Positions 1 through 27,154 of a stretch of DNA of 64,000 nucleotides are shown here, piece by piece. The notes beneath the pieces were generated by a model, which saw only the letters and a program-made list of their open reading frames with translations, had not been told where the DNA came from and searched no databases. The stretch covers positions 14,477-78,476 of the forward strand of contig CACMKZ010000002.1 of assembly GCA_902614375.1 (NCBI GenBank). Direction: 5' to 3'. The stretch is from an uncultured Alphaproteobacteria bacterium (GTDB lineage: Bacteria; Pseudomonadota; Alphaproteobacteria; HIMB59; GCA-002718135). Position 1 is the first letter of the stretch, and the number at the start of each line of letters is the position of its first letter. The position numbers were made by a program, and so were the translations under genes.

Positions 1-212
1 TACCTTTACTTATAGGGGGATCAACTATTATCGAACAAGTTTACCAATGGCCAGGAATTGGGAGTATGTTTATTCGCTCTGTGCGCGCTTCTGATTATCC
101 TTTAGTTATGACAATTTCACTAATGTATGTTTTTGTTGTTCTTACAGCAAGTTTAATAATAGATGTTTTAACAGCGTTAATTGACCCAAGAGTTAGGTTA
201 GGAAAAGAATAA
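1..212 (+). CDS. ABC transporter permease, DppB/OppB type (3' fragment; start upstream of window)
   Basis: Frame open from window edge (codons from nt 3) to TAA 210-212. Translation PLLIGGSTIIEQVYQWPGIGSMFIRSVRASDYPLVMTISLMYVFVVLTASLIIDVLTALIDPRVRLGKE is the conserved C-terminus of peptide/nickel-family permeases. Stop overlaps next start (TAATG). Confidence 0.85.
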   Translation, partial: PLLIGGSTIIEQVYQWPGIGSMFIRSVRASDYPLVMTISLMYVFVVLTASLIIDVLTALIDPRVRLGKE

Positions 213-1126
213 TGGCAAAATCTTCACTAGATAAGAAATTTGATCAAATAAGAAAACGTGAAGAGGAAAAAACTTTTTCTACAAAAAAAAGAAGTAGAAT
301 AGTTAATAAATTTTTAAATAACCGTTTAGCGGTTTTAGGTTTAATCATTTTTACAATAATTATTTTAGCTTCTATTTTTGCTCCTCTTCTCTCACCATAT
401 GATCCAATGCGAGTAGATTTACGTTCTATGAGACAACCGCCATCGTTTGATCATTGGTTTGGAACAGATAGTACAGGACGAGATGTGTTTACAAGGGTCT
501 TATTTGGAGGCAGAGTTTCAATATTTATCGGTTTAGGAAGTGCTATTCTATCAGCTGTTGTGGGAATAGCGGTTGGTTGTTACGCAGGATATAAAGGTGG
601 TTGGATTGATGTTATTGCTCTTAGAATTTCTGAAATATTTATGTCTTTCCCTCAAATTATTTTAGTTTTATTACTCGTATCCATCACAGGTCAAAGTTTA
701 TTTAATTTAATGGCTATATTTATCCTTACAGGTTGGGGAGGTATGTACAGGCTTGCTCGAGCTAGAATGTTGTCTTTAAGAGAGGAAGAATATGTTCAAG
801 CACTAAGAAGTTTTGGCTTATCTACATTTACGATATGCTACAAACATATGTTGCCGAATGCATTAAGTCCCATAATGGTCAATATTACTCTATCAACGGC
901 AATGTTTATTTTAACAGAAGCAGGACTAAGTTTTCTAGGTTTAGGGGTACCGTTAAATATTCCTACATGGGGAAATATTTTAAATGTTGCACAAGATATT
1001 TTAATTTTACAAAACTATTGGTGGATGTGGGGACCAGTTGGAATTGTTATTTCAGTTTTTGTTCTTTGTGTTAATTTTATAGGAGATGGTCTACGAGATT
1101 CAACAGATCCATCACAGCAAGGTTAG
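212..1126 (+). CDS. ABC transporter permease, DppC/OppC type
   Basis: 304 aa with multiple hydrophobic spans. OppC-type N-terminal segment (NRLAVLGLIIFTIIILASIFAPLLSPYDP) and typical C-terminal ...NFIGDGLRD. Translationally coupled to flanking transporter genes. Confidence 0.9.
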   Translation: MAKSSLDKKFDQIRKREEEKTFSTKKRSRIVNKFLNNRLAVLGLIIFTIIILASIFAPLLSPYDPMRVDLRSMRQPPSFDHWFGTDSTGRDVFTRVLFGGRVSIFIGLGSAILSAVVGIAVGCYAGYKGGWIDVIALRISEIFMSFPQIILVLLLVSITGQSLFNLMAIFILTGWGGMYRLARARMLSLREEEYVQALRSFGLSTFTICYKHMLPNALSPIMVNITLSTAMFILTEAGLSFLGLGVPLNIPTWGNILNVAQDILILQNYWWMWGPVGIVISVFVLCVNFIGDGLRDSTDPSQQG

Positions 1127-1128
1127 TA

Positions 1129-2142
1129 ATGGAAGATAAAAATAATATAGCGCTTTCAGTTAGAGATCTTAAAACTTTTTTTTATACGAATAATCGATGC
1201 AACAAAGCGGTTAATGGAGTTTCCTTTGATGTTGAAAAAGGTAAAACACTTTGTATCGTTGGTGAAAGTGGTTGTGGTAAAAGTGTTACCGCAGCTACAA
1301 TTATGCAATTACTTCCAACACTATCAAGAATTGAAGAGGGTGAAATTAAATTTCAAAAAGATGATAAAATTATCAATATTGAAAAATTAGAAAAAAATGG
1401 AAAAGAAATGAGGGAGATTAGAGGCTCAGATATTGCAATGATATTCCAAGATCCAATGACAGCACTTAATCCTGTGTACACAGTCGGATTTCAAATAAGT
1501 GAAAATCTTAAGTATCATACTAATCTCAATAAAAAAGAAATAAGGGAAAAGTGTATTTCTCTTCTCAATGACATGGGCATACCACTTCCAGAAAAAAGAG
1601 TTGATGAATATCCTCACAGTTATTCTGGTGGGATGAGGCAAAGAGCAATGATAGCAATGGCCATGGCTTGTAATCCAAAAATATTAATTGCGGATGAGCC
1701 AACAACAGCTCTAGATGTTACAATTCAAGCACAAATATTTGAGCTAATGGATAAATTAAAAAAAGAAAATGATACGGCTATTATTCTTATAACGCATGAT
1801 ATGGGAGTTGTAGCAGAGTTAGCTGATAATGTTGCAGTCATGTATATGGGAAACATTGTTGAAGCTGGAACAGCAGACGATGTTTTAAGACGACCAACAC
1901 ACCCCTATACTAAAGCTCTATTGGAGTCAGTACCTGTACTTGGAAGAGGGAAGAATCAAGATATTAATCCTATTAAAGGATCAACACCTGATCCCTATAA
2001 CAGACCTATTGGTTGTCAATTTGCTCCAAGGTGCAATTGGCAAACAGAAAGTTGTGACGTGATGCCAGAAATCACACAAATAAATGAAACTCACCAAGTA
2101 AGATGTCACAAGTACGAACAATTTTTTGAGAAATATAAATGA
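1129..2142 (+). CDS. ABC transporter ATP-binding protein, DppD/OppD type
   Basis: 337 aa. Walker A GESGCGKS, signature YSGGMRQR, Walker B ILIADEPTTALD, and the oligopeptide/dipeptide-type Cys-rich C-terminal tail (GCQFAPRC...C...C). Confidence 0.92.
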   Translation: MEDKNNIALSVRDLKTFFYTNNRCNKAVNGVSFDVEKGKTLCIVGESGCGKSVTAATIMQLLPTLSRIEEGEIKFQKDDKIINIEKLEKNGKEMREIRGSDIAMIFQDPMTALNPVYTVGFQISENLKYHTNLNKKEIREKCISLLNDMGIPLPEKRVDEYPHSYSGGMRQRAMIAMAMACNPKILIADEPTTALDVTIQAQIFELMDKLKKENDTAIILITHDMGVVAELADNVAVMYMGNIVEAGTADDVLRRPTHPYTKALLESVPVLGRGKNQDINPIKGSTPDPYNRPIGCQFAPRCNWQTESCDVMPEITQINETHQVRCHKYEQFFEKYK

Positions 2143-3146
2143 AAAAAGAGATACTTAAATTACGCGGTGTAAAAGTACATTTTCCAGTACAAGCAGGTGT
2201 GTTTAATCGTGTTGTAGGACATGTTTTGGCTGTTGATGGTGTGGATTTAGATATTTTTAGAGGTGAAGTTTTAGGTCTAGCTGGAGAAAGTGGTTGTGGA
2301 AAGACAACTCTTGGTAAAGCCATCCTAAGATTGGTAGAACCTACAGATGGAGAAGTAAAATATATTTCAAAAGATGATAATGAGACAGAATTAACATCTT
2401 TAGAAAAAAAAGATATGGATCCATTTCGAAAGAAGTTACAAATAGTCTTTCAAGATCCGCACTCCTCTCTTAATCCTTCGTTTACAATTTTTGGCTCGCT
2501 TCAAGATCCATTAAAAAAATTTGGTATAAAATCAAAAGAGGAAAGAAGAAAAATTATTGGTGATCTCCTAGAAGCAGTAAATATGCGCAGAGAATATATG
2601 GATAGATATCCTCACGAATTTTCAGGAGGACAAAGACAAAGAATTGGTATTGTCAGAGCTTTATGTCTTGAGCCGGAACTTATAGTTTGTGATGAAGCGG
2701 TTAGTGCTCTTGATGTATCAATTCAAGCACAAGTACTAAAATTATTAATGCAACTTAAGAAAGAAAAAAATCTAACCTACCTTTTCATTACTCATGATTT
2801 GAGTGTAACAGAATATCTATGTGATCGAATTGCTGTTATGTATCTTGGGAGAATTGTTGAACTTTGTGATTCTGAAGATCTATATAATAATACTCTTCAC
2901 CCCTACTCTGAAGCTTTGATTTCAGCTATCCCAGTTGCAGATCTTGACAAACAAACGAAAAGAATTGTTTTGGAAGGAGATGTACCAAGTCCAGTTAATC
3001 CACCTAAAGGCTGTCCTTTTCATCCTCGGTGTCCTAAAGCAACTGACATTTGTAAAACTGAGGTACCAACATTAAAAAAATATTCAACAAATGGTAATGA
3101 ACACTATGCATCTTGCCACTTAATTGATTTACCCGAAATTAGCTAA
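2139..3146 (+). CDS. ABC transporter ATP-binding protein, DppF/OppF type
   Basis: 335 aa. GESGCGKTT, FSGGQRQR, LIVCDEAVSALD, C-terminal GCPFHPRCP tail. 4-nt overlap with upstream ATPase gene. Confidence 0.92.
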   Translation: MKKEILKLRGVKVHFPVQAGVFNRVVGHVLAVDGVDLDIFRGEVLGLAGESGCGKTTLGKAILRLVEPTDGEVKYISKDDNETELTSLEKKDMDPFRKKLQIVFQDPHSSLNPSFTIFGSLQDPLKKFGIKSKEERRKIIGDLLEAVNMRREYMDRYPHEFSGGQRQRIGIVRALCLEPELIVCDEAVSALDVSIQAQVLKLLMQLKKEKNLTYLFITHDLSVTEYLCDRIAVMYLGRIVELCDSEDLYNNTLHPYSEALISAIPVADLDKQTKRIVLEGDVPSPVNPPKGCPFHPRCPKATDICKTEVPTLKKYSTNGNEHYASCHLIDLPEIS

Positions 3147-4076
3147 ATGTCTAAATATGATCCAAAAGATCTAAATGGTGTTATGCCTGCTATGATCACA
3201 TCGATTAATAAAGATGAAACTATAAACAAGGAAGGTTTAAGAAAAATTATCAATCATTTAATAGCCGAAAATATTAATGGCTTGTACGTAACTGGTAGTA
3301 CAGGTGAAACTTTTTTAATGTCACCAGAAGAAAAAAAAGAAGTGCTTGATATTATTGTTGAAGAAGTAAATGGCAGAGTTCCTGTTATTGCGCATGTTGG
3401 ATCTATTGGAACTAAAATTACAACTGATCTAGCAAAATATGCCACTCATGCTGGAGTCGACGCATTATCAGCATTGCCACCTTTTTATTACAATTTTTCT
3501 AATGAAGAGATTTATAATTATTATAGTGACATAGCTCAATCCTCACATTTGCCAATTATTATATATAATATTAGTCACGCAAATTTGCTGGACATTGATA
3601 TGTTAAAAAGATTGGCCGCTATAGATAATATTAAAGGAGTTAAATATACGGCAGCAACTCATTTTAATTTTGAGAAGATAAAAAAGGAGATTGGAGCATA
3701 TTTTAAAATTTATTCTGGTATGGATGAAATGGCTATCTCTGGTCTGATATCAGGTGCTGATGGTATGATTGGATCGTTTTATAATTTAATGCCAGAAATG
3801 TTTGTAGGAATTTTTCAAAATATGAAAAATGGTAATGTTGTTGAGGCAAAAAAATTACAAGACAAAGTCAATATGATCATTTTGTATGCTTTAAAAAAAT
3901 CAGGTTATCCATTTATTAAAATGGGATTAAGTTGGATGGGAATTGATTCAGGGTATGTAAGGAAGCCTTTTTCAAGTATTGTCAATACAGAGATAGAAAA
4001 GGGAATAAAAGATGATTTAAAAAAATTAATGTCGGAAAATGATCTTTCAGAAATAAAATTTTTAAAAGCATTATAA
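3147..4076 (+). CDS. nanA: N-acetylneuraminate lyase (DHDPS/NanA family class I aldolase)
   Basis: 309 aa, collinear by eye with E. coli NanA along its whole length. Shared blocks: GVMPAM.T, GLYVTGSTGE, IAHVG, ALPPFYY.FS.EE, IIIYNI, Schiff-base Lys context GVKYT, GADGMIGS.YN. Starts 1 nt after the ATPase stop. Confidence 0.85.
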   Translation: MSKYDPKDLNGVMPAMITSINKDETINKEGLRKIINHLIAENINGLYVTGSTGETFLMSPEEKKEVLDIIVEEVNGRVPVIAHVGSIGTKITTDLAKYATHAGVDALSALPPFYYNFSNEEIYNYYSDIAQSSHLPIIIYNISHANLLDIDMLKRLAAIDNIKGVKYTAATHFNFEKIKKEIGAYFKIYSGMDEMAISGLISGADGMIGSFYNLMPEMFVGIFQNMKNGNVVEAKKLQDKVNMIILYALKKSGYPFIKMGLSWMGIDSGYVRKPFSSIVNTEIEKGIKDDLKKLMSENDLSEIKFLKAL

Positions 4077-4084
4077 TTAACTTT

Positions 4085-4759
4085 GTGAAAAAAAATATTT
4101 TAAAAAAATTAAAAAATAAAATCATTGTATCATGTCAGCCTAATGAGGGTGGGCCTCAAGACAAGACGTCTATTGTTGTTTCAATGGCAGAAGCTGCAAT
4201 TATAGGAGGTTGTGGTGGTGTGCGAATTGAAGGAGAAAAAAATATACGAGCAGTCAAAAAAAATATTTCTTTACCAATAATTGGCATAATAAAAAATGAC
4301 TTAGATAACTTTAAAGTTAGAATTACGCCTCTCTTAAAGGATGTCGATAAAATTATTAATAGTGGTGCAGATATAATAGCATATGATGCCACAAATAGGA
4401 AAAGGCCTTTTCCAACAAAAGAAATTATTTTAAAAATTAAAAAAGCAAATCGTTTAGCTATGGCAGATTGCTCAAATTTAGATGATGCTAAAAAAGCTAT
4501 TTTAGAGGGTGCGGATATTATTGGAACAACACTTGCTGGCTATGTTGGTAAACAAGTGAAAGATACGGATAAACCAAATATAAAATTAATTAAAGAATTT
4601 AAAAAACTTAATTGCTTTGTAATGGCTGAAGGTCGTTACAACACTCCAGAGCTTGCAAAGCAAGCTGTACAAGCAGGAGCAGATGCAGTTACAATTGGAA
4701 GTGCTATTACGCGTATTGATAATATTACGAGTTGGTTTGTAAAAAAAATTAAAAATTAA
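4085..4759 (+). CDS. nanE: N-acetylmannosamine-6-phosphate 2-epimerase
   Basis: 224 aa, GTG start. Blocks IVSCQP, GVRIEG, LPIIGIIK.D, RITP, GADIIAYDAT.R.RP, LAMADCS, GADIIGTTLAGY, MAEGRYNTPE and AVTIGSAITR match E. coli NanE order and spacing. Confidence 0.9.
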   Translation: MKKNILKKLKNKIIVSCQPNEGGPQDKTSIVVSMAEAAIIGGCGGVRIEGEKNIRAVKKNISLPIIGIIKNDLDNFKVRITPLLKDVDKIINSGADIIAYDATNRKRPFPTKEIILKIKKANRLAMADCSNLDDAKKAILEGADIIGTTLAGYVGKQVKDTDKPNIKLIKEFKKLNCFVMAEGRYNTPELAKQAVQAGADAVTIGSAITRIDNITSWFVKKIKN

Positions 4760-4760
4760 A

Positions 4761-5642
4761 ATGAATAAAAAAATATTTAACAAATCAGGTATCGCAATTG
4801 ATTTTGGAGCAACTAAGATATCAGTATCTCAAATAATTAAAGGAAAGTTTAAAAAAACTATTACTGAGCCAACTTCAATACATAAAATAGCAAATAATTA
4901 CATTCAACAAATTGAAAAAAATATTAAAAACTTAAATATATCTAAATCTAAAAAAATAGGCATTGCTATTACAGGAAGGGTTGACCAATACGGAAATTGG
5001 TACCCAGTAAATAAAGAAAATTTAGGAAATTTCAAAATACCCCTTAAAAAACTTATAGAAAAAAAATTTAATACAGCTTCTACAATAATAAATGATGCAA
5101 CAGCTGCAGCTTTGGGAGAAGCAAATTATGGAAAAGGTTTTAAATACAAACGTGTGGGATATATTACAATTTCAAGTGGTATAGGAGTTGGTGTAATTTT
5201 AAACAATAAACCTCTTCTCTCAGAAAATGGATTAGCAGGACATTTAGGATTTACAACTTCAACGTTAGCAAAAACAAAATGTGGGAGTGGTAGAATTGGA
5301 ACTTTTGAAAGTATCGCTTCTGGTAAAGCAATGAGTAAAATTGCTAAACAAAAAGGTCATAAAAATATTAGTGCTAAAGAAATTTTTAAGCTTAGTTTTC
5401 AAAATAAAAAATGGGCAAAAGAAATAATCGATCTATCTGCCAAATCTGTCTCAGAACTGTGTGCAAATTTGAAAGCTATATTTGATATAGACATAATTAT
5501 TCTTGGTGGAAGTATTGGAATGGCACAAGGATATGTAGAGCTCGTAAAAAAAAATTTGAAAAAAGAACCTAAATTGTTTCACATAAAAGTAGTAAAGTCA
5601 TCTCTTGGAGTAAAAGCATCAAAAATGGGTGTTTTGCTATAA
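4761..5642 (+). CDS. nanK: ROK-family sugar kinase, N-acetylmannosamine kinase-like
   Basis: 293 aa. IAIDFGATKI, INDATAAALGE, GIGVGVI and GLAGHLGF are collinear with E. coli NanK. The ROK zinc motif is degenerate (CGSGRIGT instead of CxCGxxGC). Position after nanA-nanE supports the call. Confidence 0.75.
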   Translation: MNKKIFNKSGIAIDFGATKISVSQIIKGKFKKTITEPTSIHKIANNYIQQIEKNIKNLNISKSKKIGIAITGRVDQYGNWYPVNKENLGNFKIPLKKLIEKKFNTASTIINDATAAALGEANYGKGFKYKRVGYITISSGIGVGVILNNKPLLSENGLAGHLGFTTSTLAKTKCGSGRIGTFESIASGKAMSKIAKQKGHKNISAKEIFKLSFQNKKWAKEIIDLSAKSVSELCANLKAIFDIDIIILGGSIGMAQGYVELVKKNLKKEPKLFHIKVVKSSLGVKASKMGVLL

Positions 5643-5692
5643 ACACAAGAAACTGATTGTGCTTTTAATGAAAATTGCATAGGTTAATTAAA

Positions 5693-6994
5693 ATGGGAAA
5701 AGGACAAAAATTATATTCAAAAGCAAAGCAAATTGTTGCTGGTGGAAATATGCTTTTATCAAAAAGACCTGAAATGTTTTTACCTGAACATTGGCCTGCT
5801 TATTTTACTAAAACAAGAGGTTGTGAAGTATGGGATCTCGATGGAAATAAATACATAGATACCTTGATGATGCCAGGAACTAATTCACTTGGCTATAGTC
5901 ATCCAGAAGTCGATGAAGCTGTCAAAGAAATAGTTGGGAATGGAAATATGTCTTCCCTAAATGCCCCGGAAGAAGTTGAGCTCACGGAAAGATTAGTTGA
6001 ACTACATCCATGGGCTGATATGGCAAGATTTGCAAGATCAGGAGGTGAAGCTAATTCAGTCGCTATTCGTCTTTCAAGAGCTGCGTCCGGAAGAGATAAT
6101 GTAGCATTTTGTGGATATCATGGCTGGCACGACTGGTACTTAGCTTCAAATTTATCTGACTCAAAAGGGTTAGATGGTCACCTTCTACCAGGTTTAGATC
6201 CTCATGGTGTACCACAAAATCTCAAAGGAAGTGTATATCCATTTGAATATAATAATTTTGATAAACTAGAAAACTTAGTCAAAACTAAAAACATAGGCGT
6301 TATCAAAATGGAAGTTTACCGAAACAAAGAACCAGAAAATAATTTTTTACAAAGAGTTAGAAAATTAGCAAACGATAATAATATTGTTTTAGTATTTGAT
6401 GAATGTACATCAGGATTTAGAAAAAATTATGGTGGCTTGCATATGCTTTATGATGTTGAGCCTGACGTTGCAATGTTTGGAAAAGCTCTTGGAAATGGAT
6501 ATGCTGTAACTGCAGTCCTTGGTAAAAGAGAGGTAATGCAAGCAGCAGAAAAATCTTTTATAAGCAGCACCTTTTGGACTGAACGAATTGGATCTAGTGC
6601 TGGTCTTGCGACACTAAAAGTTATGGATAAAGAAAAATCATGGGAAAAAATTACAAAAATTGGTGAATACGTTAATAGTGAGTGGATGAAGTTATCTAAA
6701 GAATTTGATCTTCCAATTACTATTAGTGGATTAGCGGCACTGACAACATTTTCATTTAAAAGTGAAAATGCATTGGCCTATAAAACATTTATTACTCAAG
6801 AAATGCTTAAAAAAGGTTATCTTGCTGCAACTGCAGTCTATGTTTGTACTGCACACACAAAAGACATCATTGATGGTTACATTGAAAATATACGCCCTAT
6901 TTTTCAAACGATAAAAGAGTGTGAGGATGGAAGAAATATTATGGATTTATTAGAAGGCCCTATTGCACATAATGGTTTTAAACGATTAAACTAA
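5693..6994 (+). CDS. Class III (fold type I) PLP aminotransferase, glutamate-1-semialdehyde-aminomutase-like
   Basis: ORF opens at TTG 5675, but the first ATG at 5693 (MGKGQKLY...) is preferred. Motifs DECTSGFR and PLP-Lys context MFGKALGNG. Length about 430 aa. Confidence 0.8.
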   Translation: MGKGQKLYSKAKQIVAGGNMLLSKRPEMFLPEHWPAYFTKTRGCEVWDLDGNKYIDTLMMPGTNSLGYSHPEVDEAVKEIVGNGNMSSLNAPEEVELTERLVELHPWADMARFARSGGEANSVAIRLSRAASGRDNVAFCGYHGWHDWYLASNLSDSKGLDGHLLPGLDPHGVPQNLKGSVYPFEYNNFDKLENLVKTKNIGVIKMEVYRNKEPENNFLQRVRKLANDNNIVLVFDECTSGFRKNYGGLHMLYDVEPDVAMFGKALGNGYAVTAVLGKREVMQAAEKSFISSTFWTERIGSSAGLATLKVMDKEKSWEKITKIGEYVNSEWMKLSKEFDLPITISGLAALTTFSFKSENALAYKTFITQEMLKKGYLAATAVYVCTAHTKDIIDGYIENIRPIFQTIKECEDGRNIMDLLEGPIAHNGFKRLN

Positions 6995-8478
6995 TCTAAA
7001 GATATAATTTTATTTCCAATTTTTTTAAAAGGCAATCTTTTTAAATTACTTGTGCAAAGACCTTGGCTATCAATATAAAAACTCTGAGATGCAATTGGAT
7101 CATAAGCATCTTTATGAGACACAGCTGCTTTAATTATTATTAATTTTGCATCTCTAGGATTAATACCTTGTGAAGTTAGTTGGCCTAAATCCATTGGTGG
7201 TGTTTTAATTGATGTTAACAATAAGGTTAATTGATCATTTTTTAATACAGCGGAAGGGCCCATATTAATTTTTGTTCCCATCATTGAAGCTAAGTGAGAT
7301 TGTTTATTTTCAAGTTCAAATCTTCCATCAGAAATTCTTTCTAAATTTGCTTTAATAAAAATAGGTTTACCATGAAATACATCAAATTTTGCACCTATAT
7401 GTAGCTGAACTTCATTATTAATATGAGCTTTATGACAAGCATCTGCAGCTTCAGGATCATTAATTATAGCAACGATCCCGTTATGATTAGTTTGTAATAA
7501 TCGATCTAATAAATCAGTAGCATCTCCTGGTGTTCCTCCACCAATATTATCAGCTGGTTCAATTAGTAAAATAGGTTTTTTAATTTCTGTAATATTATCA
7601 ATCACATTTAGAGCCTCATCCAGAGAATTTTCTTTTGGATAACCATCTTTAATTTTTGCTTCTAGTATATTGACCAATTTATCTAGGTAATTTTTTGCAT
7701 CACTAATTTTTCCTCTGGTACAACAATTTATACTAAAACCACAATCTGGAATATCGGCGTATGAATATCCTGCCATAACATTAATGCATATGATCTCTGG
7801 ATCTTTCTTCTCAATTTTTAATGCTTCTTCTAAAATTGTTTTCATTGGATCATTTGCTGTACCGACACCTGTTGGAGGTAAAATATATTTTGTATCCAGA
7901 TGTACTTGTTTTACATTAGGATCTAGAAAAAGGTCGTTTAAAATTGATGCAGCTTTAACTGCTGTTTCTCTAGAATCACTGTGAGGGTTTTTTCTATATG
8001 CATAAACACATGTACTATACTTAATCATATTTTCTGAAACATTGGCGTGTAAATCTAAAACAGCAACAATAGGAATAGATATATTTTCTTTTGATAAAAA
8101 ACTTTGAATATCTCTGAGAAAATCTCCCTCAAAATCATCATGGTTAGTGCTTACCATAGCTCCATGTAAAACTAAGAAAATAGCATCTAGGTTGTGACAA
8201 GAAACTTTTAATTTTTCAAAGAAATTTTTTTTAAAATAGTTTTCTGATTCTTCATCAACAGTACCTGAGGGTCTGGCTGACATTTGAATTCCTGGAATTA
8301 TATTCCAATTTTGACCAGAAGCATATTCTATAAAACCATCTGTTGGAGATCCATTCCCAGTGTTTTCATTAATTATTTCTTCATCATGAAAAATAATAAA
8401 ATCTTTTAAATTAGTTGGTTCACCTAAAAATGTATGGGTTTCATGATATATACCTGAGAGAAAAATATTTTTAGACAT
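6991..8478 (-). CDS. MlrC-like (M81 family) metallopeptidase
   Basis: 495 aa. N-terminal IFLSGIYHETHTF resembles the MlrC/DUF1485 ..G..HETNTF signature, and size fits the two-domain MlrC family. Family recalled from memory, not searched. Confidence 0.7.
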   Translation of the reverse strand: MSKNIFLSGIYHETHTFLGEPTNLKDFIIFHDEEIINENTGNGSPTDGFIEYASGQNWNIIPGIQMSARPSGTVDEESENYFKKNFFEKLKVSCHNLDAIFLVLHGAMVSTNHDDFEGDFLRDIQSFLSKENISIPIVAVLDLHANVSENMIKYSTCVYAYRKNPHSDSRETAVKAASILNDLFLDPNVKQVHLDTKYILPPTGVGTANDPMKTILEEALKIEKKDPEIICINVMAGYSYADIPDCGFSINCCTRGKISDAKNYLDKLVNILEAKIKDGYPKENSLDEALNVIDNITEIKKPILLIEPADNIGGGTPGDATDLLDRLLQTNHNGIVAIINDPEAADACHKAHINNEVQLHIGAKFDVFHGKPIFIKANLERISDGRFELENKQSHLASMMGTKINMGPSAVLKNDQLTLLLTSIKTPPMDLGQLTSQGINPRDAKLIIIKAAVSHKDAYDPIASQSFYIDSQGLCTSNLKRLPFKKIGNKIISLD

Positions 8479-9388
8479 TTAGTATTTCTTCTAATTCATT
8501 ATTTGCATGTATTTTTATTTTTTTTACATCTTCTGCAGTTGCTCCATCATAAGGCCAGAGAACTTTTTCGGAAACTGGTCCCCATCCGCCAACAGAAGCA
8601 AGTAATTTATCTAAACCAGTGTTTGATAATTTATTAGCAAAAGGTAAAATATATTGTTTCATAAAGTTTAGGACTTTAGCTTCTAGTTCTTGTGCTTTTT
8701 CATAATCTTTCTCGATTAAATCCCAAATTTTAACAGCGCCATTTGGACTTAAACATGCAACATTGGAATAAGATCCATTTGCTCCTAAAGGTTTTCCATA
8801 TACAACCGTATGTCCAGGCACAAATACCGAAAAATCATCTAATAATTCTCTTCTTTGTGAGTACCATTGCTCATCACCCCCTGCACATTTAATTCCTACA
8901 AGATTTTGAACAGATTGTTTTAATAATCTAATCTCTTCAAGAGAAAGCAGGACTTTTGCATGAGGAGGATTGTATAAAATCATATAAATATCCTCAACCA
9001 CCTCTTGCATACCTAAAATAAAATTCTTTGACTCATTAAAAGTTGGAGGCCACCAATCTGGTAAGGTAATTTGAAATCCATTTGGTTTTAAACTTACCAT
9101 TCGCTTTGCTCTTTCTTGGCAAACTCTTGGATTAGTATGACTTAAACCAAGTTGAAATTTTTTATTCTTTTTTAATGCAATTGTTGAAACTATTTCCGAT
9201 AATTTATCAAATTCTTGTTCTGTTTGATTATGACATTCTGCAGCTGTACCATTAGTATAGATACCAGAAACTTTGGAGTCACATAAAATATGAATCTGTT
9301 CTTCAAATGCAACCCAGTCAATTTGATCATTATTAATTGGCAAAAGAATAGTTCCCCAAATTCCATTTGGTTTCTCTAGTGTTTTCAT
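8471..9388 (-). CDS. DapA/DHDPS-family class I aldolase-like protein
   Basis: 305 aa. GIYTNGTAAE (cf. G.TGE block) and candidate Schiff-base Lys in VGIKCAGG. More divergent than nanA. 8-nt overlap with the MlrC-like gene. Confidence 0.6.
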   Translation of the reverse strand: MKTLEKPNGIWGTILLPINNDQIDWVAFEEQIHILCDSKVSGIYTNGTAAECHNQTEQEFDKLSEIVSTIALKKNKKFQLGLSHTNPRVCQERAKRMVSLKPNGFQITLPDWWPPTFNESKNFILGMQEVVEDIYMILYNPPHAKVLLSLEEIRLLKQSVQNLVGIKCAGGDEQWYSQRRELLDDFSVFVPGHTVVYGKPLGANGSYSNVACLSPNGAVKIWDLIEKDYEKAQELEAKVLNFMKQYILPFANKLSNTGLDKLLASVGGWGPVSEKVLWPYDGATAEDVKKIKIHANNELEEILNV

Positions 9389-9389
9389 T

Positions 9390-10310
9390 TTAATGTTTAT
9401 GTAATTGATCTTCTGCTTGCTTAATAATATCTACGCCCACTCTATCGCTCCACCCTTGAATCAATTTCTTAGTTACTGGACCAACATTTCCATCAGCAAT
9501 TGGCATTCCATTAAACTTTGTTGCAGGCATTATTGAATATGGAGTACTAGTAATAAACATTTCATCAGAAGTTGCTAAATCATAAGATTGAATAACAGCT
9601 TCGATCACTTCAATGTCTAAAGATCGGGCTATTTCCATTGTTGAATTTCTTGTAAGCCCCTCCAAACAATTAGCAGTGGTTGGTGTAATTAACTTTCCAT
9701 CTTTAATCATAAATATATTACCACCTTTATTTTCTGCAACATTTCCATGAATATCAAGAATGACACTTTGCGCATCAGGATCAACTAATTTAGCTTCAAT
9801 TTCAGCTAACGTGTAAAAAAGACGACTTCTATTTTTAATTCTTGCATCTAAAGATTGTGAAGGCACCATTCTGGTAGGAGGAGTTACTGCATGACAACCT
9901 TTGCTATAAAAAGGAGCCCATGAAACAAGGTTCATAGGTTGAGTGTAAATCATAACAGTTGGCTTAGAGACTTGCAAAGCTGGATTACCTCCAGTGATTG
10001 AATGTCCTCGAGAAATATTATGCACAAGCCAACAATCCTCATTAGCCTTGTAATTATCTTTATTAATTTCTAATAATTCAAGACTAACCTTTTTCATTTC
10101 CTCTATTCTCATTTGAGGGTCAATACGTGTTAATTTAAATGATTTATATAATCTTTCTAAATGCTCATCTAATTTGAATGGTTTGAAATTAAATGTTCTA
10201 GTAGATTCAGTAACTGTATCGCCTAACAGTACTGCGCTATCAAATATTGAAATTTTAGCATCTACTTCTGGTACAATCTCACCAGAAATATAAACTTTTC
10301 TATTGTTCAT
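9390..10310 (-). CDS. Class IV (fold type IV) aminotransferase (branched-chain / D-amino-acid aminotransferase family)
   Basis: 306 aa. ISIFDSAVLLGD, HLERLYKS, GGNIFMIKDGKLITP and CLEGLTR blocks are typical of fold-type IV transaminases. Confidence 0.8.
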   Translation of the reverse strand: MNNRKVYISGEIVPEVDAKISIFDSAVLLGDTVTESTRTFNFKPFKLDEHLERLYKSFKLTRIDPQMRIEEMKKVSLELLEINKDNYKANEDCWLVHNISRGHSITGGNPALQVSKPTVMIYTQPMNLVSWAPFYSKGCHAVTPPTRMVPSQSLDARIKNRSRLFYTLAEIEAKLVDPDAQSVILDIHGNVAENKGGNIFMIKDGKLITPTTANCLEGLTRNSTMEIARSLDIEVIEAVIQSYDLATSDEMFITSTPYSIMPATKFNGMPIADGNVGPVTKKLIQGWSDRVGVDIIKQAEDQLHKH

Positions 10311-10311
10311 T

Positions 10312-11852: not shown

Positions 11853-11865
11853 AATTTAATAAAAT

Positions 11866-11917
11866 TATGGTAACTGAAATTAAAAAGATAGCTAGTAAAA
11901 ATTAATTATTTACCATA
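11866..11917. promoter_or_regulatory. 8-bp inverted repeat TATGGTAA / TTACCATA in divergent promoter spacer
   Basis: Arms at 11866-11873 and 11910-11917, separated by 36 bp, inside the 96-bp spacer between the PhyH pair (-) and the PanB-like pair (+). These are the only GG/CC-containing symmetric elements in that spacer. Confidence 0.25.
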
Positions 11918-11948
11918 TTTTCTTAATTAAATTATAAATCATAAGAGA

Positions 11949-18516: not shown

Positions 18517-19013
18517 GCTCTTTTCCTTATAGTTTGTCTGCATGCTGCTTCTCCTAAAATTTCAGTTTTAATTTCGTATGGAGTATCTTCAGCCAGTGCT
18601 TCATTTGTTTTAATAGTTTGATCACAAAAGTTAGGTGAAACATTTCCAACCAACTTTCTTACATGTTCATATGCTGTACAACGATTAACCGTTAAAATAA
18701 TTTCTTCATCATTAATAGAAATATTATAATCAGCATTTTCCCGATCAAAAAAATGCTGCCAATGTTTAGCTAACATTTTGATATTCCCTTTTTTAATATG
18801 ATCTTTGATATCTTTATAAACATCATTACCAACTTTTTTGAAGATATCGTTCATGGTATCGATACCATATTTATTAATTATAAACTCAATAGTTGTATTT
18901 GTAGCACCGTGAAAATCCATGTGGACATTGCCACCATCGTTGTAACGAAGTTTTTGATCTAAATTATTTTTATTCACTTTTATATACAGATTTTCCAGCA
19001 ATATAGGTTTCAC
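18513..19013 (-). CDS. Hypothetical small protein with conserved C-x17-C-x27-C pattern (paralog A)
   Basis: 166 aa. Cys in NRCTAY, NFCDQT and AACRQT align with paralog B. The annotated start overlaps nagA by 44 nt; an alternative start is M32 at 18920. Confidence 0.5.
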   Translation of the reverse strand: MKPILLENLYIKVNKNNLDQKLRYNDGGNVHMDFHGATNTTIEFIINKYGIDTMNDIFKKVGNDVYKDIKDHIKKGNIKMLAKHWQHFFDRENADYNISINDEEIILTVNRCTAYEHVRKLVGNVSPNFCDQTIKTNEALAEDTPYEIKTEILGEAACRQTIRKRA

Positions 19014-20148
19014 TAATCTCCAAATTATCTTTTTGTAAAAGAATAAAATCAGCTAATTTATTTTTTTCAATACTTCCCATAATATTTTCTAAACCTATTA
19101 CTCTTGCTGGCACTAAACTTGCAGCAATAGCAACTTGGGATAAAGTTTTTTTTGAAAACTTATAATAATTTTGTAATGCTTCAATAGAAGTTAATGATGA
19201 TCCAGCTAATAAACCATTGTAAGTAGAAGCTTTCCCTTTTTCAACTGTACACCATCGTCCAGGAAAAAATTCAAACTTAACAGGAACTGGAGAACCAGCT
19301 CCCTTAACAGAATCCGTTTCTAAGAATACTCTATCAGTTGGTAAGTGAGATAGTAGTTCAACTAATTGTGGGTGAACATGAATACCGTCACATATAACTC
19401 CAAGAGCAATTCGTGTTTCAGCAATTAAAGCATCAGTTAGAGATAATACATGAACACCTGTGTCATCTGGTGGATAAGTTGGAAGTGCATCATACATATG
19501 TGTTACAGCATCAACCCCCCAATCTGCAAATTTAGGCACATCAATTGGATTAGCTCCACTGTGACCCAAATGAATTGAAATTTTTTCTTTTTTAAGTCTC
19601 TTTATAAATTCTTCTGAGCCATTCATTTCTGGCGCTAGTGTCAGAGCTTTTAGTTTACCCTGGCATGCATCTAATAATTCTTCGGCTAAAGGTACAGAAG
19701 GATTGCGAAGATTTTTAGGATCATGAGCCCCAGGTAATGCAAAACAAGGTCCTTCTGAATGAATTCCTAAAACACGTGCGCCCTCTTTAGCTTTATCAAT
19801 GTCATTTGATAGTGCGTTTAATAAAGTTTTAGTTTTTTCAGGTGGCAAGCATGGTGTTGACGGTAAAAAACCTGTTACTCCTACTGATGGTAATATTTTA
19901 GAATTATCAACAGTACAATTTTCTTCTGCATGACCATACAAATAATTTAAAAAACCATGTTGCAGTACATCGATCATTCCTGGAAAGATAAAGTTATTCT
20001 GACCATCAATTATTTTCCATTCATCAGAAATATTTTCATTCGGACTCAAAATATCAACAATTTTATCGCCATCAATTAGAAGATCTTTATCTTCTTCTCC
20101 ATATGGAGTTACCAAAGTAACATTTGTAAATCTTTGTTTGTGTTGCAT
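18970..20148 (-). CDS. nagA: N-acetylglucosamine-6-phosphate deacetylase
   Basis: 392 aa amidohydrolase. PGMIDVLQHG, GIHSEGPCF, HLGHSGA, THMYDAL, ICDGIHVHP and ETDSV occur in NagA order. The first metal motif lacks HxH, as in E. coli-type NagA. Confidence 0.8.
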   Translation of the reverse strand: MQHKQRFTNVTLVTPYGEEDKDLLIDGDKIVDILSPNENISDEWKIIDGQNNFIFPGMIDVLQHGFLNYLYGHAEENCTVDNSKILPSVGVTGFLPSTPCLPPEKTKTLLNALSNDIDKAKEGARVLGIHSEGPCFALPGAHDPKNLRNPSVPLAEELLDACQGKLKALTLAPEMNGSEEFIKRLKKEKISIHLGHSGANPIDVPKFADWGVDAVTHMYDALPTYPPDDTGVHVLSLTDALIAETRIALGVICDGIHVHPQLVELLSHLPTDRVFLETDSVKGAGSPVPVKFEFFPGRWCTVEKGKASTYNGLLAGSSLTSIEALQNYYKFSKKTLSQVAIAASLVPARVIGLENIMGSIEKNKLADFILLQKDNLEISETYIAGKSVYKSE

Positions 20149-20218: not shown

Positions 20219-20983
20219 ATGAAAGACCAATGTGTATGTATAACTGGATCTACACATGGTATAGGATTTGGAATTGCAGAGGCATTTGCTAAAAAAGGAG
20301 CAAAAATTGTCATTAATTCTCATGAAAAAGATAATGGCGCTTTAGATAAGCTCAAGAAATTGACTGAGTGTTATTTTGTACAATCAGATCTATCAACAAT
20401 TGATGGAAATAAAAAACTAATTCAAGAAGCAAAAGATAAACTTGGAAAAATAGATACTCTTATAAATAATGCTGGTACTTTTCAAGATACTGATTTTGAA
20501 AATATTAATAAAGAAAAATTTGATACAACATTTAATCTGAACGTTAGAGGTTATATGTTTACATCTCAAGAATTTGTAAAACAAATTTCAAATGATCAAA
20601 ATAATAGTAGTATTGTTTGTATTGGTTCCTCTAACTCCTTAGCAGCTGAAAAAAACAGCGTCATGTATGATACTTCCAAAGGAGCTGTACTAATGATGAT
20701 TAAATCAATGGCTGTAAGTTTAGCATCAAAGAACATACGTGTTAATGGTATTGGTCCAGGAATACTCGAAACACCACTGACTACTGCAGGTCTAAATAAA
20801 GGAAACAATAAAAAAGTAATCAGTGCACAAATTCCACTTGGAAGAATTGGGGAGCCATCAGATATCGGTGGAGCAGCTGTATTTTTAGCGTCTGAAGAAG
20901 CAAAATATATTACAGGACAAATGTTATACGTCGATGGTGGAATTTTAGCTAATCAATTAAATTGGGATGAGTCACTTTTATAA
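20219..20983 (+). CDS. Short-chain dehydrogenase/reductase (SDR)
   Basis: 254 aa. TGSTHGIG cofactor motif, NNAG, catalytic YDTSK. Confidence 0.85.
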   Translation: MKDQCVCITGSTHGIGFGIAEAFAKKGAKIVINSHEKDNGALDKLKKLTECYFVQSDLSTIDGNKKLIQEAKDKLGKIDTLINNAGTFQDTDFENINKEKFDTTFNLNVRGYMFTSQEFVKQISNDQNNSSIVCIGSSNSLAAEKNSVMYDTSKGAVLMMIKSMAVSLASKNIRVNGIGPGILETPLTTAGLNKGNNKKVISAQIPLGRIGEPSDIGGAAVFLASEEAKYITGQMLYVDGGILANQLNWDESLL

Positions 20984-21006
20984 AAAAATTTAAAAAAGGA
21001 GAGAAT

Positions 21007-21396
21007 ATGATTAAAATAATAACCACTGGTGCAAAATCAGTTTTACCTTTTAGCCCTGCAATTAAAGCAGGTGATTTTGTATATGTTTCAGGGCAAGCTT
21101 CCGTTGATCGAGAAAATGGTTCAATCATTGAAGGTACATTTGAAGAAGAAATGAGACGTTCAATTGAAAATTTAGAAGTGATTTTAAAAGAAGCAGGTCT
21201 GACCTTGGATCATGTTATTAATGTTAAGGGCTACGTAGCTGATCAAAAAGATTTAAAAGAATATAATAAAATTTATCCTGAATATTTTAAAGATCCACTA
21301 CCAACAAGAAGCACAATTGTAAAAGTGTTGCCTACTTTCTTAAAATTTGAGCTTGATTGTGTTGCTTATGCGCCAAATACTAGACAAGAAGGATAA
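21007..21396 (+). CDS. ridA: RidA/YjgF-family reactive enamine/imine deaminase
   Basis: 129 aa. GDFVYVSGQ, TLDHVI, P.RSTI.V. Strong SD (AAGGAGAG) upstream. Confidence 0.85.
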   Translation: MIKIITTGAKSVLPFSPAIKAGDFVYVSGQASVDRENGSIIEGTFEEEMRRSIENLEVILKEAGLTLDHVINVKGYVADQKDLKEYNKIYPEYFKDPLPTRSTIVKVLPTFLKFELDCVAYAPNTRQEG

Positions 21397-22677
21397 TTAA
21401 AAATAAGTTAATATTCCATCAAGAACATTATAGTCTTCATCAACAACTGGAATAAACTTCCATTTATCAAATGCTGTGCATGGATGTGAAATACCAGAAC
21501 AAATCATATCCCCTACCTGCCATTGATGATTATCAGCAAGTTTAACAAAGGCATGCTGATCATTTGTGCTAAATATTTCTGCTTCACCAATATCTAAGAA
21601 ACCTTCACCAGGTCTAAATCTTTTTATTGGTTTTGGTAAACCTGAATCATATGGAGCATCTCGTTTTCCCATAGTTAGAAAAGCAAGATTATTTTCAGGA
21701 ATGGATTGTACATAGGACCAAATTTCAAGAGCTGGTTGCAGAGATTGATCCCATTGTCTATTGGAATCACTTTTAGCTGTCTCAAGTGCATCCAAATAAG
21801 GTCCATGATCATGTGTAATATAACATCCGCTTCGTAATAGTACTTTAATTGGAACACTAAGTTTAATTTTTGAAAATCTTTCCCCCACAATATCAAAATG
21901 AGTTGATCCACCAGCAGTAATTAATAATTCATTTAGATGAGAGTAATAATTTGAAGGAATATCATTAATAATATCTTCAATCTTTGAACAAAAATCATGC
22001 ACAGCATCTGATCCTTTCATTGCTACAGCTGCTATACCCTCGTATGAAGAAATACCTGCGAAAGTAAAATTCTTTGATGAATCCTCTCCAATTATATTAA
22101 CAAGTTTTAAAAAAACTTCTTTTTTGCGTATACCTGTCCGTCCATTTTCAGCACCTACTTCGGGCAATAAATTTATTGGATTGGTTAAATTTTGATCACC
22201 AAGATTTTTTTTTATATTTGAGAACTGCTCAATTGAATCAACAAAACAATAGAAAGAAAAATTTTTATTTTGATTAATATATGATGCTATTGTTTCTAAA
22301 TGTGATTTACCTAAAAGTTGATTAGCAAGTAAAACTTTTTTTATACCAAAATCAAACATAACTTGAATTTGATTAATAGCACCAGCTGTAATGCCCCATG
22401 CTCCATGTTTTATCTGCTCAGAAAAAATCTGAGGGGCCATGGTAGTTTTACCATGAGGAGCAATATCTAGATTGTGTTTTTCTAAATAATTAGAAAAAGT
22501 TTTTAAATTATGAAGATAATTTTTTTGTTTTAATACCATTAATGGCATAGGCATATCTTCCTTCAAAATATTCCATTTTTTATTTTTTAATTCTTTTAGT
22601 GGAAATGGTTCACTTGAACCTGGAATACCTTTGGTTCGCCTATCTAAAATAGTATTTTGAATTTCACTTAAATCCAT
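21397..22677 (-). CDS. Fold-type III PLP enzyme, D-serine dehydratase-like / D-threonine aldolase-like (alanine racemase N-domain family)
   Basis: 426 aa. PLP-Lys context APHGKTTMAP, and a C-terminal D-Ser-dehydratase-like domain (..GISHPCTAFDKW..). Its stop abuts the ridA stop with 0 nt between them. Confidence 0.72.
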   Translation of the reverse strand: MDLSEIQNTILDRRTKGIPGSSEPFPLKELKNKKWNILKEDMPMPLMVLKQKNYLHNLKTFSNYLEKHNLDIAPHGKTTMAPQIFSEQIKHGAWGITAGAINQIQVMFDFGIKKVLLANQLLGKSHLETIASYINQNKNFSFYCFVDSIEQFSNIKKNLGDQNLTNPINLLPEVGAENGRTGIRKKEVFLKLVNIIGEDSSKNFTFAGISSYEGIAAVAMKGSDAVHDFCSKIEDIINDIPSNYYSHLNELLITAGGSTHFDIVGERFSKIKLSVPIKVLLRSGCYITHDHGPYLDALETAKSDSNRQWDQSLQPALEIWSYVQSIPENNLAFLTMGKRDAPYDSGLPKPIKRFRPGEGFLDIGEAEIFSTNDQHAFVKLADNHQWQVGDMICSGISHPCTAFDKWKFIPVVDEDYNVLDGILTYF

Positions 22678-23501: not shown

Positions 23502-23516
23502 ATTCTTTATCCTTTG

Positions 23517-25268: not shown

Positions 25269-25281
25269 TAATTAATATCAC

Positions 25282-26061: not shown

Positions 26062-26062
26062 A

Positions 26063-27067: not shown

Positions 27068-27154
27068 TATTTATATAAAACTAACTTGACCACTTTATAA
27101 TAGTATGATGTTATATGAATAAGTAAATTGATAATATAAATAAATTCAAAAAAA

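What the first reader, a model, noticed from the sequence alone, without database searches (positions are those of the whole stretch)
1..5642. Sialic-acid catabolic genes nanA-nanE-nanK fused to a peptide-type (Dpp/Opp-like) ABC importer
Seen in sequence: nanA, nanE and nanK homologues are collinear by eye with the E. coli enzymes. They follow the four transporter genes with 0-8 nt spacers, so they look like one operon. nagA lies 13 kb away in the same island, and no nagB is present in the window. Established knowledge: NanA, NanK, NanE and NagA form the canonical Neu5Ac to GlcN-6-P route. Peptide-family ABC systems have been reported as sialic acid importers (H. ducreyi SatABCD, Corynebacterium glutamicum SiaEFGI). 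Inference: the transporter imports a sialic or related nonulosonic acid rather than peptides. For an AT-rich, streamlined marine alphaproteobacterium, a lineage usually viewed as specialised on small organic acids, amino acids, osmolytes and C1 compounds, this would be a notable accessory capability aimed at algal or animal glycoconjugate debris.
Basis: partly seen in the sequence, partly recalled or inferred. Interest (0 to 1): 0.55.

Follow-up and report, generated by a model that had tools for sequence, protein, structure and literature searches.

The report
SAR11 sialic-acid uptake and breakdown operon
An abundant ocean bacterium (SAR11) carries one operon joining a peptide-type ABC importer to the three enzymes that break down sialic acid, and the importer's binding protein, encoded just outside the window, is a rearranged (circularly permuted) member of a clade found next to sialic-acid genes in many bacteria.

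Summary
Window 1-5642 holds the 3' end of a dppB-like permease, then dppC, two oligo_HPY ATPases, nanA, nanE and a nanK-like ROK kinase. All are on one strand, with junctions from a 4-nt overlap to an 8-nt spacer.

The interpretation (import of a sialic or related nonulosonic acid) is supported by comparative evidence only.
- Near-identical SAR11 contigs supply the missing upstream binding-protein gene. It is a family-5 SBP that is circularly permuted.
- It is no closer to H. ducreyi SatA than to peptide, nickel or opine binders.
- Its nearest normal-order relatives (38-45% identity) sit in nan-type clusters. One has a secreted sialidase, NagB and YhcH. Another has the order transporter-DHDPS-nanE-ROK.
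- In about 65 of 83 surveyed loci with the permuted SBP, a lyase that keeps every E. coli NanA catalytic and sugar-binding residue lies next to the transporter.
- nanE/nanK recur beside this transporter in unrelated lineages.

nanE-nanK look like an insertion into an older transporter-lyase-aminotransferase operon. That operon belongs to a roughly 30-kb island shared with roseobacters and Devosia. No nagB is in the window, and the nagA-like gene scores below its family cutoff.

I rate it a new variant of a known kind. No experimental evidence bears on it.

The parts
3..211 (+). 3' end (69 codons) of the dppB-like permease; the gene start and the SBP gene lie upstream of the window
   Evidence: Frame-3 translation. 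It is about 99% identical to L001-L003, where the full 321-aa permease and a 535-aa SBP_bac_5 gene precede it.
212..1126 (+). dppC/oppC-like permease
   Evidence: BPD_transp_1 + OppC_N. Best NCBIfam match is Opp4C at 337.9 bits, below its cutoff of 350.
1129..2142 (+). ABC ATPase, DppD/OppD type
   Evidence: ABC_tran + oligo_HPY.
2139..3146 (+). ABC ATPase, DppF/OppF type
   Evidence: ABC_tran + oligo_HPY; 4-nt overlap with the preceding gene.
3147..4076 (+). N-acetylneuraminate-lyase-type aldolase (NanA)
   Evidence: NF003164 290.4 bits, above its cutoff of 281. Top 33 PDB hits are all NAL or putative NAL. Y43, S47, T48, Y110, Y137, K165, T167, G189, D191, E192 and S208 are conserved.
4085..4759 (+). 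N-acetylmannosamine-6-phosphate 2-epimerase (NanE)
   Evidence: PF04131 247.5 bits; NF002231 282.6 bits, above its cutoff of 189. All PDB hits are NanE, best E 5e-60.
4761..5642 (+). ROK-family kinase, NanK-like, with a degenerate zinc motif
   Evidence: Best families and best PDB hits are ManNAc kinases, but it is below the NCBIfam cutoffs. The motif GHLGF...CGSGRIGT keeps 1 of the 4 zinc ligands of the reference GHIGH...CGCGRxGC.
5675..6994 (+). Class-III aminotransferase, probable last gene of the operon; conserved partner of the transporter-lyase unit
   Evidence: PF00202. It is 63-66% identical to the gene that directly follows the lyase in roseobacter loci, and is linked to it (not always adjacent) in Devosia loci.
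6991..10310 (-). Convergent conserved partners: M81/MlrC-like hydrolase, second DHDPS-family protein, class-IV aminotransferase
   Evidence: Orthologues (50-64% identity) are linked to the same transporter in other Alphaproteobacteria.
18970..20148 (-). NagA-like amidohydrolase (candidate GlcNAc-6-P deacetylase)
   Evidence: TIGR00221 200.8 bits, below its cutoff of 225.65. Orthologues lie in the same island in Paradevosia and others.
20219..27811 (.). Remainder of the conserved island: SDR, RidA, D-Ser-dehydratase-like PLP enzyme, HpcH/HpaI aldolase, SDR, GFO, SDR, GFO, RraA-like protein
   Evidence: The same genes, in the same order, lie next to the transporter in about 30 non-SAR11 loci.

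Best explanation
This is a SAR11 (Pelagibacteraceae) catabolic operon with the order SBP (just upstream of the window), dppB, dppC, dppD, dppF, nanA, nanE, nanK, and probably a class-III aminotransferase.

Proposed mechanism:
1. A periplasmic, circularly permuted family-5 binding protein captures free sialic acid, most likely Neu5Ac or a close 9-hydroxy nonulosonic acid.
2. It delivers the sugar to a PepT-type ABC translocator (two permeases, two ATPases).
3. In the cytoplasm, NanA cleaves it to pyruvate and N-acetylmannosamine.
4. The ROK kinase phosphorylates C6.
5. NanE epimerises the product to GlcNAc-6-P.
6. The NagA-like amidohydrolase 13 kb away may deacetylate that to GlcN-6-P.
7. With no nagB in the window, GlcN-6-P would feed cell-wall synthesis unless a deaminase is encoded elsewhere. 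Pyruvate and acetate are the direct carbon gain.

Shown: gene content, order and spacing; family assignments; conservation of active-site residues; the permutation of the SBP; conserved gene neighbourhoods across phyla.

Inferred: the ligand, co-transcription, and the fate of GlcNAc-6-P.
For: Gene order and tight junctions.

Enzyme assignments:
- NanA passes an equivalog cutoff and keeps all NAL residues.
- NanE is above its cutoff.
- The kinase's best matches are all ManNAc kinases.

The SBP:
- It was recovered from contigs about 99% identical to the window.
- BLASTP against the canonical sister P0244 gives two swapped segments: 281-546 onto 58-324, and 44-274 onto 333-564, at 44-45% identity.
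- A re-permuted sequence aligns as one colinear stretch with PDB family-5 SBPs.
- The AF2 model is confident (pLDDT 88, pTM 0.80).

Context of the canonical sisters:
- P0244 lies with a sialidase, an NAL-type DHDPS, NagB, GlcNAc 2-epimerase, DUF386 and an RpiR regulator.
- P0245 has the order transporter-DHDPS-NanE-ROK, with the NAL-type lyase 4 kb upstream.
- P0246 lies with a GntR/FCD regulator, DUF386, and a lyase with the same residue pattern as the window.

Survey of 83 loci carrying the permuted SBP (80 genome loci plus L007-L009):
- An NAL-type lyase is adjacent in about 65.
- NanE/NanK lie beside the transporter in Marinosulfonomonas, Hyphomicrobiales, Geminicoccales and Oceanospirillales.
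- NanE-NanK fusions occur in Planktomarina and a Rhodobacter MAG.
Against: - There is no biochemical or expression evidence.
- The SBP shows no specific similarity to the only structurally characterised family-5 sialic-acid binder, SatA (E 2e-8 to 2e-9; Foldseek rank 11 among peptide and nickel binders).
- Most non-SAR11 loci, and some SAR11 lineages (L027, L030, L082), lack nanE/nanK. They carry aminotransferases, oxidoreductases and a second aldolase instead. The ancestral substrate, or its downstream route, may therefore differ from the E. coli paradigm.
- NanA differs from E. coli at positions 142 (A for L), 209 (F for T) and 252 (Y for F).
- The kinase and the NagA-like protein are below the curated cutoffs, and nagB is absent from the window.
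- A few loci with the same SBP family (SAR324 and Deltaproteobacteria) have no NAL at all.
Confidence: 0.68

Rival explanations
1. The transporter and lyase act on a different nonulosonic acid or sialic-acid derivative, such as Neu5Gc, KDN, O-acetylated forms, or 5,7-diamino acids like legionaminic or pseudaminic acid. The conserved aminotransferases, SDR/GFO oxidoreductases, PLP dehydratase, RidA and HpcH aldolase would form its main, non-phosphorylative breakdown route. On this reading nanE/nanK in this SAR11 lineage are a later add-on that handles only part of the flux.
For: - The core shared with roseobacters, Devosia and nanEK-less SAR11 is SBP-BCDF-lyase-AT3 (+AT4, DHDPS2) plus the GFO-SDR-GFO-SDR-HpcH-Dserdeh block.
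- The lyases of this island type share A142/F209 rather than the E. coli L142/T209.
- SDR3 has a sub-threshold match to the flagellin-modification protein PtmA.
Against: - NanK needs a 6-OH on the hexosamine, so 9-deoxy acids (Leg, Pse) cannot use the nanEK branch.
- All NAL residues that contact the sugar hydroxyls are kept.
- Canonical-topology sisters of the SBP sit in ordinary sialidase-containing nan clusters.
- Planktomarina carries the aminotransferases and a NanE-NanK fusion in one operon, so the two sets are compatible with a single substrate.
Confidence: 0.2
2. The ABC system imports a larger conjugate or another amino sugar, for example a small sialoside or ManNAc. Sialic acid would then be released or made inside the cell, for instance by the two cytoplasmic BNR/Asp-box proteins in the island.
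For: - Family-5 SBPs typically hold larger ligands such as oligopeptides, chitobiose and opines (PDB hits).
- Two BNR_2 proteins without signal peptides flank an MFS transporter at 14483-18019.
- BNR-like genes occur near the transporter in two spirochaete loci.
Against: - The BNR proteins lack the FRIP arginine motif of GH33 sialidases (the motif itself is from my own knowledge).
- They have no NCBIfam match.
- They are not conserved with the transporter outside SAR11.
- SatA shows that a family-5 SBP can bind the free monosaccharide (PMC11364026).
Confidence: 0.08
3. It is an ordinary di/oligopeptide importer that merely lies next to nan genes.
For: The permeases and ATPases score best against Opp/Dpp models. 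Source databases name the SBP 'peptide/nickel transport system substrate-binding protein'.
Against: - All those matches are below the equivalog cutoffs.
- The junctions with nanA are 0-8 nt.
- The SBP-lyase linkage is conserved across Alphaproteobacteria, Gammaproteobacteria, KSB3, deltaproteobacterial MAGs and Gram-positive sister clusters.
Confidence: 0.04

Closest known systems
SatABCD of Haemophilus ducreyi, family ST3 of Severi et al. 2021 (includes C. glutamicum SiaEFGI and Bifidobacterium NanBCDF)
   Same: A PepT-type ABC importer with a Pfam SBP_bac_5 binding protein, encoded in a nan cluster and used (in ST3, shown experimentally) for Neu5Ac uptake (PMC8461474, PMC11364026).
   Different: - The SBP is not specifically related to SatA (E 2e-8 to 2e-9, behind peptide, nickel and agrocinopine binders).
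- Its domain order is circularly permuted.
- SatC is a fused permease-ATPase, whereas here dppC, dppD and dppF are separate genes.
- ST3 is reported only from Actinobacteria and Pasteurellaceae; this system is in marine Alphaproteobacteria and others.
- SiaE itself could not be compared because no sequence was available.
E. coli nanATEK-yhcH sialic-acid catabolic operon
   Same: The NanA lyase, NanE epimerase and ROK-type NanK are homologous and collinear, and sit in one operon with the transporter.
   Different: - The transporter is an ABC system, not the MFS NanT.
- There is no YhcH and no NanR.
- The kinase has lost the ROK zinc site.
- A class-III aminotransferase follows nanK.
- nagA is only 'nagA-like' and nagB is not nearby.
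Uncharacterised canonical-topology family-5 SBPs in Gram-positive and other nan clusters (P0244, P0245, P0246)
   Same: They are 38-45% identical to the SAR11 SBP over both halves, have the same BCDF partner genes, and sit next to a DHDPS-family gene. In P0244 and P0246 that adjacent gene is NAL-type. In P0245 it is not, and the NAL-type lyase lies 4 kb upstream. One locus has the same order, transporter-DHDPS-nanE-ROK.
   Different: They have the normal N-to-C domain order. At least one is a lipoprotein. They are accompanied by secreted sialidase, esterases, NagB, AGE-type epimerase and DUF386, which the SAR11 locus lacks.
DppABCDF/OppABCDF peptide importers (TC 3.A.1.5, PepT family)
   Same: Same subunit composition and domain families (BPD_transp_1, OppC_N, oligo_HPY, SBP_bac_5).
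   Different: No subunit reaches any peptide-transporter equivalog cutoff. The SBP is permuted, and its genomic partners are sugar-acid enzymes rather than peptidases.

Membership tests
Canonical NanA-NanK-NanE sialic-acid pathway | NanA: class-I aldolase with Schiff-base Lys165, Tyr137, the GSTGE motif (S47/T48), and sugar-binding D191/E192/S208 | tested here: met
   All are conserved in the window protein. The top 33 PDB hits are NAL or putative NAL.
Canonical NanA-NanK-NanE sialic-acid pathway | NanA scores above the curated equivalog cutoffs | tested here: inconclusive
   NF003164 290.4 bits vs cutoff 281 (passes); TIGR00683 249.5 bits vs cutoff 382 (fails).
Canonical NanA-NanK-NanE sialic-acid pathway | NanE: ManNAc-6-P 2-epimerase family | tested here: met
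   PF04131 247.5 bits; NF002231 282.6 bits vs cutoff 189. All PDB hits are NanE.
Canonical NanA-NanK-NanE sialic-acid pathway | NanK: ROK kinase specific for ManNAc | tested here: inconclusive
   The best hits are all NanK, but the scores are below cutoff (211.5 vs 283; 188.1 vs 450). The ROK zinc motif is degenerate.
Canonical NanA-NanK-NanE sialic-acid pathway | NagA and NagB to carry GlcNAc-6-P to fructose-6-P | tested here: not met
   The NagA-like gene is below the TIGR00221 cutoff. No NagB or SIS deaminase is in the window. The rest of the genome was not examined.
ST3 / SatABCD sialic-acid ABC transporters | The binding protein belongs to Pfam SBP_bac_5 | tested here: met
   PF00496 171 bits in two stretches.
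ST3 / SatABCD sialic-acid ABC transporters | The binding protein groups with SatA (ST3 forms a single clade) | tested here: not met
   SatA chains rank 26-30 among PDB hits at E 2e-8. SatA is absent from the canonical sister's hits at E 1e-12 or better. Foldseek does not separate it from peptide binders. The actinobacterial SiaE was not available for comparison.
ST3 / SatABCD sialic-acid ABC transporters | SatC is a fused permease-ATPase and SatD is the second ATPase | tested here: not met
   There are separate dppC, dppD and dppF genes. The ST3 architecture is taken from PMC8461474, Table 1.
ST3 / SatABCD sialic-acid ABC transporters | Demonstrated Neu5Ac binding or transport | not testable with these tools
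   This needs ligand-binding or uptake assays.
PepT-family (Dpp/Opp) ABC importers | Two BPD_transp_1 permeases (one with OppC_N), two ATPases with oligo_HPY, and a family-5 SBP | tested here: met
PepT-family (Dpp/Opp) ABC importers | Canonical N-to-C domain order of the cluster-C SBP | tested here: not met
   The SBP is circularly permuted.

The most novel reading that the evidence does not exclude
The permuted-SBP transporter defines an undescribed, independently evolved family of nonulosonic-acid importers, in effect a ninth family beside ST1-ST8. It would be widespread in pelagic marine bacteria (SAR11, Planktomarina, other roseobacters, SAR324).

The conserved island around it would encode a so far undescribed non-phosphorylative route for the lyase product. 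Its parts are the lyase, class-III and class-IV aminotransferases, a second DHDPS-like enzyme, an M81 hydrolase, NagA-like deacetylase, SDR/GFO dehydrogenases, a PLP dehydratase with RidA, and an HpcH aldolase. The substrates could be bacterial or algal acids such as legionaminic or pseudaminic acid, for which I know of no described catabolic pathway.
Probability: 0.2. Interest if true: 0.8.

Novelty: new variant of a known kind. Interest (0 to 1): 0.62.

Why it matters
SAR11 is the most abundant heterotroph in the surface ocean and is usually described as living on small acids, amino acids, osmolytes and C1 compounds. A dedicated high-affinity uptake and cleavage system for sialic-type sugars would add glycoconjugate debris to its diet. 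It would also provide pyruvate, which, to my knowledge, cultured SAR11 strains require.

For the transporter field, this is a candidate sialic-acid ABC importer that arose separately from SatABCD. Its binding protein is a naturally circularly permuted cluster-C SBP, with the new termini at the inter-lobe hinge. I found no paper describing such a permutation, and it raises a direct structural question about how the Venus-flytrap closure works with one hinge strand cut.

The family is common in marine metagenomes. The exact DppC sequence is indexed in 1670 blocks of the contig collection, and the SBP cluster has 953 member sequences.

Tried and rejected
- The promoter and terminator consensus scan over 1-12000 gave counts equal to shuffled sequence. 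It gives no support for or against internal transcription signals.
- An Rfam scan of the window and of L003, including the SBP leader, found no riboswitch or other RNA family.
- Mapping SatA ligand residues was abandoned. SatA binds Neu5Ac mostly through main-chain atoms plus His333 (PMC11364026), and the sequence alignment to SatA is too weak.
- I tested whether the island's GFO oxidoreductases are NanOx/YjhC-like, which would point to 2,7-anhydro-Neu5Ac. GFO2 matches YjhC only at E 5e-6, behind inositol dehydrogenases. GFO1 has no PDB hit. The GFO in the Gram-positive sister cluster is closest to a glucuronide-3-dehydrogenase. The idea was rejected.
- A Foldseek search against AFDB50 was not possible because the library is unavailable.
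- Literature searches found no study of SAR11 sialic-acid catabolism. The only mention is a count of nanE genes in 'Pelagibacter sp001438335' (PMC10570557). They also found nothing on natural permutation of family-5 SBPs.
- I considered assembly error as the cause of the permutation and rejected it. The same gene occurs in dozens of independent SAGs and MAGs and in isolate genomes of Devosia and Paradevosia.

Full report
**What is in the window**

The first 5.6 kb carry, on the + strand:
- the last 69 codons of a dppB-like permease (3-211);
- a dppC-like permease (212-1126);
- two ABC ATPases with the oligo_HPY domain (1129-2142, 2139-3146);
- a DHDPS-family protein (3147-4076);
- a NanE epimerase (4085-4759);
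- a ROK kinase (4761-5642).

Junctions are 0, 2, -4, 0, 8 and 1 nt. A class-III aminotransferase follows after 32-50 nt, depending on the start codon chosen (5675-6994). Consensus scans for promoters and terminators are at chance level, and no Rfam family is present.

**Enzyme identities**

- *NanA.* The DHDPS-family protein passes the NF003164 N-acetylneuraminate lyase cutoff (290.4 vs 281) but not the TIGR00683 cutoff. Its 33 best PDB matches are all N-acetylneuraminate lyases or putative ones (E 3e-54 to 3e-41), ahead of dihydrodipicolinate synthases (5e-35). It is 36% identical to E. coli NanA.
  - It keeps Y43, S47, T48, E50, Y110, Y137, K165, T167, G189, D191, E192 and S208.
  - It differs at 142 (A), 209 (F) and 252 (Y).
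- *NanE.* It is well above its cutoff, and all its PDB hits are NanE.
- *NanK-like kinase.* Its best matches are all ManNAc kinases, but it is below the curated cutoffs. It has lost three of the four ROK zinc ligands (GHLGF...CGSGRIGT).

**The missing binding protein**

The dppC product occurs identically on many contigs (indexed in 1670 blocks of the collection). Six contigs with long flanks are about 99% identical to the window where compared (L001-L003). They show an SBP_bac_5 gene and the full dppB immediately upstream. Record titles identify the organisms as Pelagibacteraceae/SAR11 single-cell genomes.

The SBP is 535 aa with a Sec signal peptide and a strong RBS. Its domain order is swapped:
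- residues about 284-530 match the N-terminal part of solved family-5 SBPs;
- residues about 21-235 match their C-terminal part.

Cutting the sequence at residue 262 and rejoining the halves gives a single colinear alignment with PDB proteins (for example 49-511 against 55-495 of 8efz). An AlphaFold model is confident (pLDDT 88, pTM 0.80). Every Foldseek PDB hit covers only about 240 columns, as expected for a permuted protein.

H. ducreyi SatA is a weak, undistinguished hit in all these searches.

**Closest relatives and their neighbourhoods**

The exhaustive search of 50%-identity representatives found few colinear (permuted) clusters. Directly after them come proteins that match in two swapped stretches. 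These are canonical-order sisters at 38-45% identity. BLASTP of P0001 against P0244 shows 281-546 onto 58-324 and 44-274 onto 333-564.

The old C-terminus (...DWxV) is joined through SGG to the old N-terminus (TLQTNTGPVEFF). The new termini lie where the chain normally crosses from lobe I to lobe III.

The sisters sit in nan-type clusters:
- *P0244* lies with an RpiR regulator, DUF386/YhcH, an NAL-type lyase, NagB, GlcNAc 2-epimerase, esterases and a large secreted sialidase.
- *P0245* has the order transporter-DHDPS-NanE-ROK, with the NAL-type lyase 4 kb upstream.
- *P0246* lies with a GntR/FCD regulator, DUF386, and a lyase with the same residue pattern as the window.

P0244 itself does not hit SatA at E 1e-12 or better.

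**Survey of the permuted family**

I examined 80 genome loci plus L007-L009.
- An NAL-type lyase lies next to the transporter in about 65 of the 83 loci. Many of the exceptions are truncated contigs. A SAR324/deltaproteobacterial group truly lacks the lyase.
- NanE/NanK recur beside the transporter in different arrangements in Marinosulfonomonas, Hyphomicrobiales, Geminicoccales and Oceanospirillales.
- NanE-NanK fusions, with the same degenerate zinc motif, occur in Planktomarina and a Rhodobacter MAG.

**How the SAR11 operon arose**

In roseobacters, Devosia, Paradevosia and three SAR11 lineages (L027, L030, L082), the lyase is followed directly by the class-III aminotransferase, without nanE/nanK. 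One SAR11 genome has lost nanK only (L017).

The window's aminotransferases and second DHDPS-like gene are 56-66% identical to the Marinovum genes. The block at 18970-27811 contains NagA-like, SDR, RidA, D-Ser-dehydratase-like, HpcH aldolase, SDR, GFO, SDR, GFO and RraA-like genes. It is syntenic with the region upstream of the transporter in those genomes.

So nanE-nanK were inserted into an older operon that is part of a roughly 30-kb island. Beyond about 27.8 kb the window is housekeeping.

**Interpretation**

The best-supported reading is uptake of a sialic acid by a PepT-type ABC system, followed by NanA cleavage and the NanK/NanE route to GlcNAc-6-P.

The conserved aminotransferase and oxidoreductase genes are not explained by the E. 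coli pathway. They may be an alternative branch for the hexosamine product, or they may indicate a broader or different nonulosonic-acid substrate.

nagB is absent from the window and the NagA-like protein is sub-threshold, so the end of the pathway is open.

**Comparison with known systems**

Severi et al. 2021 (PMC8461474) list eight sialic-acid transporter families. The only family-5 one, ST3/SatABCD, is reported from Actinobacteria and Pasteurellaceae and has a fused SatC. This system differs in SBP clade (as far as SatA can represent ST3), topology, subunit architecture and taxonomy.

A 2023 metagenome survey counted nanE genes in a Pelagibacter species but did not discuss them (PMC10570557). 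I found no paper on natural permutation of family-5 SBPs.

**Verdict**

It is a new variant of a known kind, of moderate to high interest both for SAR11 physiology and for transporter evolution.

Noticed in passing
L003:7360-8967 (upstream of window position 1): The operon's binding protein is a naturally circularly permuted family-5 (cluster C) SBP. The new termini fall at the inter-lobe hinge, and the old termini are joined by about 3 residues. Canonical-order sisters exist at 38-45% identity.
   Followed up: yes
window 18970-27811: A conserved ten-gene block: NagA-like, SDR, RidA, D-Ser-dehydratase-like PLP enzyme, HpcH aldolase, SDR, GFO, SDR, GFO, RraA-like. It is syntenic with the region flanking the same transporter in roseobacters, Devosia and other Alphaproteobacteria. 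It looks like an undescribed oxidative, deaminating sugar-acid route.
   Followed up: partly
window 14483-18019: Two BNR/Asp-box beta-propeller proteins (four Asp-boxes each) flank an MFS transporter. They have no signal peptide, no FRIP motif and no NCBIfam match, so they are sialidase-like but probably not GH33 sialidases.
   Followed up: partly
window 10312-14452: Three PhyH-type Fe(II)/2-oxoglutarate dioxygenases and two tandem PanB-like (ketopantoate hydroxymethyltransferase family) paralogues, all below their equivalog cutoffs. Their function within the island is unknown.
   Followed up: no
window 4761-5642; L034:19763-21433, L043:9841-11514, L088:18698-20353: The NanK-like kinase has lost three of the four ROK zinc ligands. 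Planktomarina and a Rhodobacter MAG encode NanE-NanK fusion proteins with the same degenerate motif.
   Followed up: partly
L017, L027, L030, L082 (SAR11 loci): Population variants of the operon. One SAR11 genome has nanK cleanly deleted. Three more divergent SAR11 lineages have no nanE/nanK at all, with the lyase abutting the aminotransferase.
   Followed up: partly
window 36767-43690 (-): A two-partner secretion pair in a streamlined SAR11 genome: a ShlB/FhaC-type TpsB, and a 1746-aa TpsA with a TPS domain, FG-GAP repeats and a YDG domain.
   Followed up: no
window 18031-19013 (-): Two overlapping ORFs (170 and 166 aa) between BNR2 and the NagA-like gene have no Pfam or NCBIfam match.
   Followed up: no
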